Assembly (NCBI GenBank): GCA_964549615.1
Contig: CAZJVP010000079.1
Location: 1-48,926, forward strand
From: an uncultured Thermococci archaeon
Lineage (GTDB): Archaea > CAYQAE01 > CAYVLA01
Direction: 5' to 3'
DNA: 48,926 nucleotides
Positions 2,834-44,989 of this stretch are shown here, piece after piece. The notes under the pieces are model-generated. The model was not told where the DNA came from, made no database searches, and saw only the letters and a program-made list of their open reading frames with translations. Each line of letters starts with the position of its first letter. Position 1 is the first letter of the stretch. Position numbers and translations under genes: made by a program.

Positions 2834-2924
2834 CGGGCCGGGCGGGATTTGAACCCACGGCTTGCGGCTTTCTTCCAGGGGAAAGGTAGGAGGCCGCCGC
2901 CCTATCCAACTAGGCCACCGGCCC
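2834..2924 (-). tRNA. tRNA-Arg(CCT) with 17-nt intron at 37/38 (intron 2870-2886)
   Basis: Acceptor GGGCCGG/CCGGCCC, discriminator G, D-loop AGTTGGATA, anticodon stem GCGGC/GCCGC with CT-CCT-A, T arm GTGGG-TTCAAAT-CCCGC; CCA not encoded. Confidence 0.9.
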
Positions 2925-43841: not shown

Positions 43842-44438
43842 CGATGGGAACCTCTGACCTGGGATATTAATTTTCAGGCAGGGGGCGTATCCCTGGGTGG
43901 ATCTTCTACTTGTCTTTGGCCCTGAGTTGTCCCTTGGCCTGTGGGCTGGAGGATGGAAGGATCGGTGCTTTACGTTGGATGTGCTGCCTGCTCAGGGAGG
44001 GACCAGGAGAACGAGACATCCGAATGGGCTGGGGAGATCAAGGAGATCTTGGCAGGGGTCGGCAACGACAAGGACAAGCATACGTCCAGCTGGGGCGTAG
44101 GGGGTCTGGAAGGCAAGGCCCGACGATAGTGCAACCATCACCCAGTCCATATCCCCACGGCCAGCTCCCTACAGGTGGCGGAGGCCCCGCTGGCTCATCT
44201 GCAGGTTCCTCACCAAGCTTCGCACAAGTTCGTGGCAGCTGCGGAGGCCGCGGAAGAAGGTAGAGATCCCGAGATAGGAAATTCATGGTAGGAGCTTGGA
44301 AATAGAGCTATGGACTTCACAGAAGAGAAGGCTTGGAAGAAGGGTACTACCGGGAGCACAGAAGACCTACCCACGATAAACTGTAGAGAACCAAAGAAGT
44401 TGACTCCGGCCATCTAGGTTGAACACACTCGCTGTAGG

Positions 44439-44537
44439 TGGTGGGCCCGCAGGGATTCGGACCCTGGACCAGTCCCCCGACGCAAGTGCGTCGTCCAGGT
44501 TATGAGCCTGGCGCTCTACCAGCTAAGCTACGGGCCC
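44439..44537 (-). tRNA. tRNA-Ile2(CAT) with 23-nt non-canonical intron at 43/44 (44472-44494); CCA encoded
   Basis: Acceptor GGGCCCG/CGGGCCC-A-CCA, anticodon arm CCAGG-CTCATAA-CCTGG, T arm CAGGG-TCCGAAT-CCCTG. Ile2 rather than Met is inferred from the acceptor stem and the tandem position after tRNA-Asn. Confidence 0.82.
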
Positions 44538-44546
44538 TCCTTTAGA

Positions 44547-44740
44547 TGGCGCCGCCGGCCTAGCCCCGCCGAGACAATGCTCGTGCGGTAGGGCTCGAAC
44601 CTGCTTGTGGCGCAAACAGGCAGCCCTGTTTGCGTGACCACATGGTTTCCGCTTGATGGCCGAACCGGACACCAAGTAACAGCCATGCGCTCCAGGCGGG
44701 CTCCGAACCGGAACCCCTCTACCAACTGAGCTACGGCGGC
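44547..44740 (-). tRNA. tRNA-Asn(GTT) with four introns: 22/23 (44692-44718), 37/38 (44647-44676), 48/49 (44605-44635), 63/64 (44560-44589); CCA encoded
   Basis: Removing 27+30+31+30 nt from 194 nt gives a fully paired 76-nt cloverleaf GCCGCCG TA GCTC AGTTGGTA GAGC G CATGG CTGTTAA CCATG TGGTC GCAGG TTCGAGC CCTGC CGGCGGC G CCA; each junction forms a BHB-type motif. Confidence 0.93.
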
Positions 44741-44772
44741 ACCACGCGATCCAGCCTAACCCGGCGAGTCAG

Positions 44773-44780
44773 TTAAATAT
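44773..44780 (-). promoter_or_regulatory. TATA box (ATATTTAA) of the tRNA-Asn/tRNA-Ile2 pair
   Basis: 32 nt upstream of the tRNA-Asn 5' end, preceded by BRE-like GGGGAAA. Confidence 0.65.
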
Positions 44781-44989
44781 TTTCCCCGAGGCTTAGCCCG
44801 AGCGGGATCGTCGTCAGAAACGCTTTCACGGGAGGCCACCGGCATCCGGAAGGCCGCCCGCAACAACCAAGGCAACCACCCGAGCCTCCAGCCCGCCTCG
44901 AATGCTGTGGTTCGGCCGGCAGCCTGTCCGCAAGCGATGCCGAAGCGCTGCTCGGCCGTCGCCGCCTCCTTCAGTTGGACCGCGATCGT

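What the first reader, a model, noticed from the sequence alone, without database searches (positions are those of the whole stretch)
44547..44740. tRNA-Asn(GUU) gene split into five exons by four introns
Seen: exons of 22, 15, 11, 15 and 13 nt (44719-44740, 44677-44691, 44636-44646, 44590-44604, 44547-44559) join to a perfect 76-nt cloverleaf with encoded CCA; 118 of 194 nt are intron. Splice motifs on the minus strand: 37/38, helix CUGU:GCGG with bulges UA|C and AA|A; 48/49, helix GUGG:CCAC with bulges UC|A and AA|G and a 10-bp hairpin; 63/64, helix AGCC:GGCU with bulges CU|A and AG|G; 22/23, relaxed helix UGGU:GCCU with bulges AG|A and GG|A (sequence alone allows 21/22 to 24/25). Knowledge: archaeal EndA cuts BHB/BHL motifs, and to my recollection described archaeal multi-intron tRNAs (Thermoproteales) carry at most three introns, with 48/49 and 63/64 being rare sites. 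Inference: a functional, extremely fragmented tRNA that standard scanners would probably miss.
Basis: partly seen in the sequence, partly recalled or inferred. Interest (0 to 1): 0.92.

Follow-up and report, generated by a model that had tools for sequence, protein, structure and literature searches.

The report
tRNA-Asn gene with four introns
This is a real archaeal asparagine tRNA gene cut into five pieces by four short introns, one more than the published maximum of three, and it is conserved in related hot-spring archaea, although its splicing has not yet been seen in RNA.

Summary
Confirmed. On the minus strand, 44740-44547, five exons (22/15/11/15/13 nt) join to a fully Watson-Crick cloverleaf that ARAGORN calls tRNA-Asn(GUU). 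ARAGORN and Rfam do not see the unspliced gene. My own pair-aware, intron-aware search placed the same four introns (22/23, 37/38, 48/49, 63/64) at every penalty tried.

The gene has the same four introns in two sister genera and in 9 of 9 metagenome contigs found with a pattern that already required the first two. In a 10-sequence alignment, 1 of 73 exon columns varies against 62 of 119 intron columns, and the bulge-helix-bulge (BHB) helices covary.

No other GUU tRNA was found in this 99.5%-complete genome. It encodes two endonucleases carrying broad-specificity loops, plus RtcB. A second four-intron gene, tRNA(CAT), lies on another contig and is conserved family-wide.

Two papers state a maximum of three introns. 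A 2024 Asgard paper's closed supplement may hold four-intron genes. No RNA data exist, so splicing is inferred. It is a new variant of a known kind.

The parts
44772..44787 (-). Putative archaeal promoter: a purine-rich BRE-like stretch plus TATA-like box (GGGGAAAATATTTAAC), with the TATA part about 33-40 nt upstream of tRNA position 1
   Evidence: The core GGGAAA(A)TATTTAA is present in 12 of 12 homologous loci while the sequence around it varies. Calling it a BRE/TATA promoter is inference from archaeal promoter knowledge, not a test.
44719..44740 (-). Exon 1, tRNA positions 1-22 (acceptor 5' strand, U8, D-stem 5' strand, D-loop, G22)
   Evidence: Invariant in 10 of 10 aligned sequences except position 17, which is U or A.
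44692..44718 (-). Intron 1 (27 nt) at 22/23, a relaxed BHB: central helix UGGU:GCCU (3 of 4 pairs) and an 8-bp inner hairpin, with a 4-nt 5' bulge in the best register
   Evidence: The central helix is 4 of 4 (AGGU:GCCU) in the 5 of 10 homologues that have A17. The hairpin is 97.5% paired with G:C to A:U and C:G changes.
44677..44691 (-). Exon 2, positions 23-37 (D-stem 3' strand, 26, anticodon stem 5' strand, loop with anticodon GUU)
   Evidence: Invariant in 10 of 10.
44647..44676 (-). Intron 2 (30 nt) at the canonical 37/38 site, a full hBHBh' motif: CUGU:GCGG, bulges UA|C and AA|A, with the anticodon stem as outer helix
   Evidence: central 4/4, inner 5/5, outer 4/4. 22 of 30 columns vary, and 3 inner-helix pairs change on both sides.
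44636..44646 (-). Exon 3, positions 38-48 (anticodon stem 3' strand and variable loop)
   Evidence: Invariant in 10 of 10.
44605..44635 (-). Intron 3 (31 nt) at 48/49: central helix GUGG:CCAC, bulges UC|A and AA|G, a 10-bp inner hairpin and a weak outer helix
   Evidence: 5 of the 10 hairpin pairs change on both sides, for example A:U to G:C, and 96% of cells are paired.
44590..44604 (-). Exon 4, positions 49-63 (T-stem 5' strand, T-loop, first 3 nt of the T-stem 3' strand)
   Evidence: Invariant in 10 of 10.
44560..44589 (-). Intron 4 (30 nt) at 63/64: central helix AGCC:GGCU, bulges CU|A and AG|G, and an 8-bp inner hairpin with one bulged A
   Evidence: The central helix is 100% paired and invariant; the inner helix is 97.5% paired with one pair changed on both sides.
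44547..44559 (-). Exon 5, positions 64-73 plus an encoded CCA (44547-44549)
   Evidence: Positions 64-73 are invariant. CCA follows G73 in only 4 of 12 homologues; the others read CCT (L044 GCC).
44442..44537 (-). Downstream tRNA-Met(CAU) gene with one intron (23 nt, placed at 43/44 by my search), starting 9 nt after the Asn CCA and probably co-transcribed
   Evidence: ARAGORN and Rfam at 62.3 bits; my search. It follows tRNA-Asn 12-13 nt after G73 in 12 of 12 homologues, with no TATA-like box in the spacer. Asn-Met adjacency is also seen next to intronless tRNA-Asn genes in four genomes outside this phylum.

Best explanation
This is the functional, and as far as found the only, tRNA-Asn(GUU) gene of an uncultivated hot-spring archaeon. 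Its same-genus relative carries the public label 'Candidatus Hadarchaeota', and the genome collection holds only five species of its phylum. The proposed pathway is as follows. The gene is transcribed from a conserved BRE/TATA-like promoter, probably together with the tRNA-Met gene just downstream. The 194-nt precursor part carries four protein-spliced introns at 22/23, 37/38, 48/49 and 63/64. Each intron pairs with the exon bases just upstream of the 5' cut. This forms a 4-bp central helix flanked by two bulges, backed by an intron-internal hairpin: a bulge-helix-bulge motif, strict at 37/38 and relaxed at the other three sites. The splicing endonuclease cuts two nucleotides 3' of each strand of the central helix, which makes eight cuts. 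RtcB joins the five exons. RNase P, tRNase Z and, where CCA is not encoded, the CCA-adding enzyme finish the ends. Shown here: the gene anatomy, its conservation, the covariation of the intron helices, and the presence of the enzymes. Inferred: transcription, the cuts, the ligation and the order of intron removal.
For: (1) The joined exons give a tRNA-Asn(gtt) cloverleaf with all stem pairs Watson-Crick and G73. (2) An independent pair-aware search with BHB-scored introns returns exactly these four introns at penalties 8, 10, 14 and 18, with a score of 66.1 against at most 46.9 for about 2,135 non-tRNA windows. (3) The same four introns occur in G002 and G003, two other genera of the family, and in 9 of 9 metagenome contigs. 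The search pattern already required introns 1 and 2, but introns 3 and 4 were not required. (4) 1 of 73 exon columns varies against 62 of 119 intron columns. (5) The 50 BHB pairs are 96.2% paired against 34-48% when slid by 1-3 columns. 10 pairs change on both sides against 0-4 when slid, and 0 of 500 shuffles reach any measure. (6) The spliced product is 57-63 of 73 identical to intronless tRNA-Asn genes from outside this phylum, and those genes are also followed directly by tRNA-Met. (7) No other Asn tRNA was found: ARAGORN made 47 calls with none for Asn, Rfam gave 35 matches, and my census of 42 genes holds one GUU. Genome completeness is 99.46%. (8) The enzymes are present. A 403-aa endonuclease matches the ARMAN-2 epsilon2 enzyme 4FZ2 over its whole length (E 2e-73). 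It keeps the Tyr/His/Lys triad and the lysine of the specificity loop (residue numbers from PMC6379350). A 393-aa two-unit endonuclease has a catalytic unit closest to the Aeropyrum pernix alpha subunit (E 2e-43). It keeps the triad and the Crenarchaea-specific-loop lysine. RtcB is present. Both endonucleases are in all four genomes of the family. (9) The DNA is sound. An independently assembled contig spans the stretch at 100%. Short contigs from runs of two other studies cover intron-bearing parts with 2-6 differences and no joints. Three variants that fall in introns 1 and 3 lie in hairpin loops or turn U:G into C:G.
Against: There is no RNA evidence of any kind, because no listed run holding the stretch is RNA. 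Thermodynamic folding of the whole precursor does not predict the 4-bp central helices. Their mean pair probability is 0.02-0.47 at 37 C and 0.09-0.65 at 70 C. The structure with all four motifs lies 6.2 (37 C) or 4.3 (70 C) kcal/mol above the minimum. Intron 1 in this genome has a U.U mismatch in the central helix and a 4-nt bulge in its best hairpin register. Introns 3 and 4 have weak outer helices and use bases of the mature anticodon and T arms. The same-genus genome G001 shows no copy; its contig ends inside the neighbouring tRNA-Met. No copy was found in G004, the other family of the phylum. A metagenome-assembled genome can lack tRNA genes, so 'only Asn tRNA' is 'none other found'. My scoring scheme was written by me and tuned on this locus after a first version mis-parsed it.
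Confidence: 0.92

Rival explanations
1. The locus is a decaying or silent tRNA-Asn relic, and the working tRNA-Asn lies in an unassembled part of the genome.
For: The genome is a 104-contig metagenome assembly. tRNA genes are often unassembled, and five expected anticodons (CCA, GGC, CUG, UGG, GGA) were not found by my census. No RNA run was listed.
Against: A relic would not keep 72 of 73 exon columns invariant across three genera and nine metagenome contigs while 62 of 119 intron columns change. Nor would it keep the intron helices paired through compensatory changes or keep a conserved promoter-like box. No second GUU gene was seen in G000.
Confidence: 0.03
2. The gene is real, but fewer than four of the insertions are endonuclease-spliced introns. 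For example, the relaxed 22/23 insertion, or 48/49 and 63/64 with their weak outer helices, might be removed another way or define a different mature sequence.
For: Intron 1 has 3 of 4 central pairs and a 4-nt bulge in G000. Introns 3 and 4 lack a good outer helix. Folding gives the central helices low probability.
Against: Only removal of all four at the stated sites gives a cloverleaf. All four have the same layout, with cuts 2 nt 3' of a 4-bp helix. The central helices are 87.5-100% paired in 10 sequences, and intron 1 is 4 of 4 in half of them. The insertions are 27-31 nt, and Rfam at E up to 10 finds no self-splicing intron family there. Enzymes of the two types reported to cut relaxed motifs are encoded.
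Confidence: 0.04
3. The structure is an assembly artefact or chimera.
For: It is a metagenome assembly with contamination estimated at 2.81%.
Against: A contig from another assembler spans 44400-44800 with no difference. Runs of two other studies hold near-identical pieces that include intron sequence. Two other genomes and nine metagenome contigs carry the same structure.
Confidence: 0.01

Closest known systems
Multiple-intron tRNA genes of Thermoproteales (Pyrobaculum, Thermofilum, Caldivirga and others)
   Same: They have short protein-spliced introns at canonical and non-canonical positions, with strict or relaxed BHB motifs and several per gene. They co-occur with a broad-specificity endonuclease (passages of PMC4033280, and PMC8450103).
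   Different: Those papers give a maximum of three introns per gene, whereas here two genes have four. The lineage is not Thermoproteales. The genome encodes an epsilon-type and a two-unit endonuclease rather than the separate alpha and beta subunits. Intron density here is about 1.2 per gene (51-52 in 42 genes), against 71 in 46 genes quoted for P. calidifontis.
tRNA genes of Atabeyarchaeia and Freyarchaeia (Asgard), PMC11291895
   Same: Introns are extremely frequent and often non-canonical: 92-95% of genes have introns, 228 introns were counted in three genomes, and over half of the genes have several (passages).
   Different: It is a different phylum. With about 1.9 introns per gene on average it may well hold four-intron genes, which would remove the 'first' claim.
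ARMAN-2 (Candidatus Micrarchaeum acidiphilum) epsilon2 endonuclease and its substrates
   Same: The 403-aa enzyme of this genome aligns with 4FZ2 over residues 29-403 (E 2e-73). The catalytic triad and the loop lysine are kept. That type is reported to cut relaxed motifs at many positions (PMC4033280; PMC6379350).
   Different: This genome is 3.2 Mb, not ultrasmall. The enzyme sits beside a second, two-unit endonuclease. Activity of either enzyme is untested.
[quoted passage not shown]
   Same: They hold up to three ectopic BHB-type introns per gene. RT-PCR there showed stepwise removal, with order tracking motif stability (PMC3728597 passages).
   Different: [quoted passage not shown] Here all exons are colinear.

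Membership tests
Archaeal endonuclease-spliced (BHB) tRNA intron | Two bulges (canonically 3 nt) on opposite strands, separated by a 4-bp helix, with a cut in each bulge | tested here: met
   Introns at 37/38, 48/49 and 63/64 have 4 of 4 central pairs and 3-nt bulges. The 22/23 intron has 3 of 4 pairs in G000, 4 of 4 in 5 of 10 homologues, and a 4-nt 5' bulge in its best register, so it is relaxed. The definition of the motif is from established knowledge (Marck and Grosjean 2003, recalled).
Archaeal endonuclease-spliced (BHB) tRNA intron | Flanking helices (h and h') on both sides of the motif | tested here: inconclusive
   The inner helices are strong for all four, at 8-10 bp and 92-97.5% paired with covariation. 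The outer helix is full only at 37/38 (4 of 4). It is 2-3 of 4 and interrupted at the other three, so these are relaxed HBh'-like forms.
Archaeal endonuclease-spliced (BHB) tRNA intron | Removal at the predicted cuts restores a canonical cloverleaf | tested here: met
Archaeal endonuclease-spliced (BHB) tRNA intron | The genome encodes a splicing endonuclease able to cut relaxed motifs, and an RtcB ligase | tested here: met
   This is met at sequence level only. There is an epsilon-type enzyme (E 2e-73 to 4FZ2, with the triad and loop lysine kept) and a two-unit enzyme with a Crenarchaea-type catalytic unit and its loop lysine. RtcB scores 607 bits.
Archaeal endonuclease-spliced (BHB) tRNA intron | Excision and exon ligation seen in RNA | not testable with these tools
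   No RNA run was listed for the stretch.
tRNA-Asn | Cloverleaf with anticodon GUU and discriminator G73 (identity elements from general knowledge, recalled) | tested here: met
   ARAGORN on the in-silico spliced product. The product is 57-63 of 73 identical to intronless tRNA-Asn genes from outside this phylum and shares their adjacency to tRNA-Met.
tRNA-Asn | High score of the spliced form against an archaeal tRNA covariance model (tRNAscan-SE or Infernal) | not testable with these tools
   The covariance-model tools read only the window and stored loci, and a joined sequence may not be typed in. The unspliced locus gets no tRNA match even at E up to 10.
Split (trans-spliced) or permuted tRNA gene | Exons encoded at separate loci, or in permuted order | tested here: not met
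   All five exons are colinear on one strand within 194 nt.
Self-splicing group I or II intron | A large structured ribozyme core | tested here: not met
   The insertions are 27-31 nt, and no Rfam intron family matches at E up to 10.

The most novel reading that the evidence does not exclude
This archaeal family carries the most fragmented cis-spliced tRNA genes yet described, with four introns in both tRNA-Asn and a tRNA(CAT). It keeps them because it maintains two broad-specificity splicing endonucleases, an epsilon-type and a two-unit type with a Crenarchaea-type loop, which divide the work between strict and relaxed motifs. The expected tRNAs that my census could not find (Trp CCA, Ala GGC, Gln CUG, Pro UGG, Ser GGA) would then be still more fragmented, or split.
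Probability: 0.2. Interest if true: 0.78.

Novelty: new variant of a known kind. Interest (0 to 1): 0.62.

Why it matters
Intron number per tRNA gene is used as a measure of how far endonuclease specificity and tRNA gene structure have co-evolved. Two papers give three as the ceiling, and tRNAscan-SE's iterative intron search is described for two or three introns. A conserved four-intron gene for an essential, apparently single-copy tRNA shows three things. Eight correct cuts and four ligations per molecule are sustainable. Standard annotation can leave an essential isoacceptor unannotated in such genomes: ARAGORN also missed His and mislabelled Phe here. And intron-rich tRNA sets exist outside Thermoproteales and Asgard. 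The pairing with two different endonuclease paralogs gives a direct biochemical test of which enzyme handles which motif, and in what order.

Tried and rejected
RNA evidence: no RNA holder was listed, so expression and splicing could not be examined.

My first intron-aware search used a flat intron penalty and mis-parsed the locus into a two-intron 'Pro' with a long variable arm. I replaced it with a version that scores each candidate intron for BHB pairing. The scheme was therefore adjusted after seeing this locus. Its later agreement with homologues, and its clean separation of tRNAs from noise, are the independent checks.

At penalty 8, random genomic windows scored up to 49.8 in 40 trials with 4-13 spurious 'introns', so I used penalty 10 for the census. 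At penalty 10 the search over-called introns in the G004 tRNA-Met, giving four where penalty 14 gave three and a better match to orthologues. Intron counts for census genes other than Asn and CAT are therefore approximate.

Whole-precursor folding did not recover the central helices.

All-against-all comparison of the 50 census introns found no similar pair at E 0.01, so there is no sign of recent intron transposition.

209 relaxed T-arm seeds gave no further gene. The top hit was the antisense of tRNA-Arg.

tRNA-Asn was not found in G001, whose contig ends inside the neighbouring tRNA-Met, nor in G004. I did not fetch those genomes whole.

'Not in print' rests on searches, which found no paper describing a four-intron archaeal tRNA. 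Subscription journals and supplements were not searched, and Supplementary Data 4 of PMC11291895 may bear on the claim.

Papers: I saw passages only of PMC8450103, PMC4033280, PMC11291895 with its bioRxiv version, PMC3728597, PMC6379350, PMC12397907 and PMC4090602. For PMC3488258 and PMC3239211 I saw only the listing with the start of the abstract.

Sigma-70 promoter and terminator scanning was not used, because it does not apply to archaea.

Full report
**The observation**

A script cut out the five stated exons (22, 15, 11, 15 and 13 nt) and joined them. ARAGORN calls the 76-nt product tRNA-Asn(gtt). The acceptor, D, anticodon and T stems are 7, 4, 5 and 5 bp, all Watson-Crick. U8, A14, G18, G19, U33 and the T-loop are in place, the discriminator is G73, and CCA is encoded. 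The four insertions are 27, 30, 31 and 30 nt, which is 118 of 194 nt.

Standard scanners do not see the gene:
- ARAGORN on the window finds only two other tRNAs.
- Rfam at gathering score finds only the same two.
- Rfam's tRNA model on the whole genome gives 35 matches, none here.
- Rfam at E up to 10 on 44500-44800 still reports no tRNA over the locus.

No ORF of 80 aa or more overlaps the locus. It lies between an HtrA-like protease gene and a triosephosphate isomerase gene on the same strand.

**An independent parse**

No tool here handles several non-canonical introns, so I wrote a dynamic-programming search for a cloverleaf. It scores stem pairs and conserved single positions and allows an intron between any two positions.

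- The first version charged a flat price per intron and mis-parsed the locus.
- The second version scores each candidate intron for the bulge-helix-bulge (BHB) layout: a 4-bp helix between exon bases -6 to -3 and intron bases -6 to -3, plus an inner helix.
- That version returns exactly 22/23, 37/38, 48/49 and 63/64, and does so at penalties 8, 10, 14 and 18.

At penalty 10 the locus scores 66.1. I ran the search on 966 windows seeded by a T-loop motif, 997 seeded by a D-arm motif and 209 seeded by a relaxed T-arm. The scores fall into two groups. The 42 genes I called tRNAs (cut-off 50) score 50.9-72.0. Everything else scores at most 46.9, and that top window is the antisense of a tRNA-Arg.

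**The splice motifs**

All four introns share one layout. The cuts fall two nucleotides 3' of each strand of a 4-bp helix.

| Site | Central helix | Bulges | Inner and outer helices |
|---|---|---|---|
| 37/38 | CUGU:GCGG, 4/4 | UA\|C, AA\|A | inner 5/5; the anticodon stem is the outer helix |
| 48/49 | GUGG:CCAC, 4/4 | UC\|A, AA\|G | 10-bp hairpin; weak outer helix |
| 63/64 | AGCC:GGCU, 4/4 | CU\|A, AG\|G | 8-bp hairpin with one bulged A; weak outer helix |
| 22/23 | UGGU:GCCU, 3/4 (one U.U) | AG\|A, GG\|A | 8-bp hairpin whose best register leaves a 4-nt 5' bulge |

Shifting intron 1 by -1 to +2 gives the same mature sequence. Intron 2 tolerates -1, and introns 3 and 4 tolerate no shift. Within this genome's intron set, 48/49 and 63/64 each occur only once.

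**Related sequences**

The genome collection holds only five species of this phylum.

- G002 and G003, two other genera of the same family, carry the whole locus at 80% and 79% identity. My search finds the same four introns in both.
- The same-genus genome G001 has a contig that ends inside the neighbouring tRNA-Met, and no copy was found.
- No copy was found in G004, the other family.
- A scan of metagenome contigs used a pattern requiring exons 1-3 with two gaps. It returned 9 contigs, and all 9 also have introns 3 and 4 at the same places. A fifth 'intron' called in L044 is an artefact of my search running into the next gene.

In an alignment of 10 distinct sequences, 1 of 73 exon columns varies (D-loop position 17, U or A). 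By contrast, 62 of 119 intron columns vary. These sequences are kin, so the Fisher p of 1e-15 is descriptive only.

I counted the 50 pairs of the four central helices and four inner hairpins on that alignment:

| Measure | As proposed | 3' partners slid by 1-3 columns |
|---|---|---|
| Cells paired | 96.2% | 34-48% |
| Pairs changed on both sides | 10 | 0-4 |
| Shuffles reaching the observed value | 0 of 500, for every measure | not applicable |

The A17 variant, present in 5 of the 10 sequences, makes the intron-1 central helix fully paired.

**Orthology**

Intronless tRNA-Asn genes in four genomes outside this phylum are 57-63 of 73 identical to the spliced product. Each is followed directly by tRNA-Met(CAU). 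The window shows the same adjacency: tRNA-Met starts 9 nt after the Asn CCA, and it follows within 12-13 nt of G73 in all 12 homologous loci. The five-exon gene is therefore the positional orthologue of an ordinary tRNA-Asn.

A GGGAAA(A)TATTTAA box lies about 28-44 nt upstream in 12 of 12 loci, amid otherwise variable sequence. I read it as a BRE/TATA promoter serving both tRNAs, which is inference. The encoded CCA is present in 4 of 12 loci, so it is not a conserved feature.

**Soundness of the DNA**

A public run that may be the source of this genome, assembled with another program, yields one contig spanning 44400-44800 without a difference. Runs of two other studies (hot spring and microbial mat) hold short contigs that cover intron-bearing parts with 2-6 differences. 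No contig joins across an intron. Three variants that fall in introns 1 and 3 lie in hairpin loops or turn a U:G pair into C:G.

**The rest of the genome**

The genome is 3.21 Mb in 104 contigs, 59.9% G+C, with estimated completeness 99.46%. ARAGORN's 47 calls include no Asn, His or Phe.

My census finds 42 tRNA genes with 51-52 introns, and 31 of the 42 genes are interrupted. Roughly 11 genes have none, 17 have one, 9-10 have two, 2-3 have three and 2 have four. Only one gene has anticodon GUU.

The second four-intron gene is a tRNA(CAT) at C20:204054-204247, minus strand. Its introns lie at 20a/21, 37/38, 45/46 and 68/69, and the central helices are 4/4, 4/4, 3/4 and 4/4. The same four introns are present in G001, G002 and G003.

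Five expected anticodons were not found: CCA, GGC, CUG, UGG and GGA. Seeds needed an intact T-loop or D-arm, so more fragmented genes would escape the search.

**The enzymes**

The genome has two splicing-endonuclease genes.

- One is 403 aa and aligns with PDB 4FZ2 over residues 29-403 (E 2e-73). PMC6379350 lists that entry as the broad-specificity epsilon2 enzyme of ARMAN-2. The residues aligned with its Tyr236, His251 and Lys282, and with the loop Lys161, are all conserved.
- The other is 393 aa with two endonuclease units. Its C-terminal unit is closest to the Aeropyrum pernix alpha subunit (3P1Z/3AJV, E 2e-43). It keeps the triad and the lysine aligned with Lys44 of the Crenarchaea-specific loop.

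Both genes are present in all four genomes of the family. G004 shows only one 190-aa unit. RtcB is present. The closest relatives of the epsilon-type enzyme outside the family are labelled Micrarchaeota and Aenigmatarchaeota, at 35-40% identity. The same-genus copy is labelled 'Candidatus Hadarchaeota archaeon'.

**What speaks against the reading, or is missing**

- No RNA run was listed, so transcription, cutting and joining are all inferred.
- Folding the precursor alone gives the central helices low probability. The structure with all four motifs lies 6.2 kcal/mol above the minimum at 37 C and 4.3 at 70 C. That structure is compatible with the acceptor stem.
- The central helices of introns 3 and 4 use G43 and positions 58-61, so the mature anticodon-stem end and T-arm cannot be fully formed at the same time. 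An order of removal is likely but unknown.

**Comparison with what is known**

This works like the multiple-intron tRNA genes of Thermoproteales, and it meets the sequence-level criteria for endonuclease-spliced introns.

[quoted passage not shown] Six full-text searches found no four-intron archaeal tRNA.

One reservation is serious. PMC11291895 reports 228 introns in three Asgard genomes, two of which are listed with 40 and 38 tRNAs, without giving a maximum per gene. Its per-gene table is a supplement I could not open.

**Verdict**

It is a new variant of a known kind: one intron beyond the stated ceiling, in two genes. It is conserved across a family of a small phylum-level lineage and is paired with an unusual double set of endonucleases. 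Interest 0.62.

Noticed in passing
G000 contig C20:204054-204247, minus strand (locus L049): A second four-intron gene, tRNA(CAT), also 194 nt. Its introns lie at 20a/21 (29 nt), 37/38 (54 nt), 45/46 (17 nt) and 68/69 (20 nt). The same four introns are present in G001, G002 and G003.
   Followed up: yes
G000 C90:41466-42674 (L022:1195-2406, minus) and C88:58694-59872 (L021:1456-2637, minus): One genome holds two splicing-endonuclease paralogs: an epsilon2-type three-unit enzyme and a two-unit enzyme with a Crenarchaea-type catalytic unit and specificity loop. Both are conserved in all four genomes of the family, while the sister family G004 shows only one 190-aa unit.
   Followed up: partly
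window 2834-2924, minus strand: ARAGORN names this intron-bearing tRNA Gly(tcc) on the window and Trp(cca) on the genome. The only intron placement with a BHB-like motif (17 nt at 37/38) gives anticodon CCU, Arg. With that reading, no tRNA-Trp was found in the genome.
   Followed up: partly
window 44442-44537, minus strand: The tRNA-Met next to the finding has a T-loop reading TCCGAAT, with C at position 55 where U is nearly universal. The G002 and G003 orthologues have the usual TT.
   Followed up: no
whole genome G000: My census found no tRNA with anticodon CCA, GGC, CUG, UGG or GGA. These genes may be unassembled, or too fragmented for seeds that need an intact T-loop or D-arm.
   Followed up: partly
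L005 about 1452-1595 (G004, the other family of the phylum): The tRNA-Met orthologue appears to carry three introns, at 2/3, 8/9 and 43/44, in an AT-rich genome where only a single-unit endonuclease was detected. ARAGORN does not see this gene.
   Followed up: partly
L008, L010, L013, L018 (genomes outside this phylum) and the window: tRNA-Asn is followed directly by tRNA-Met(CAU) in distantly related archaea as well, so this gene pair looks like an old, conserved arrangement.
   Followed up: no
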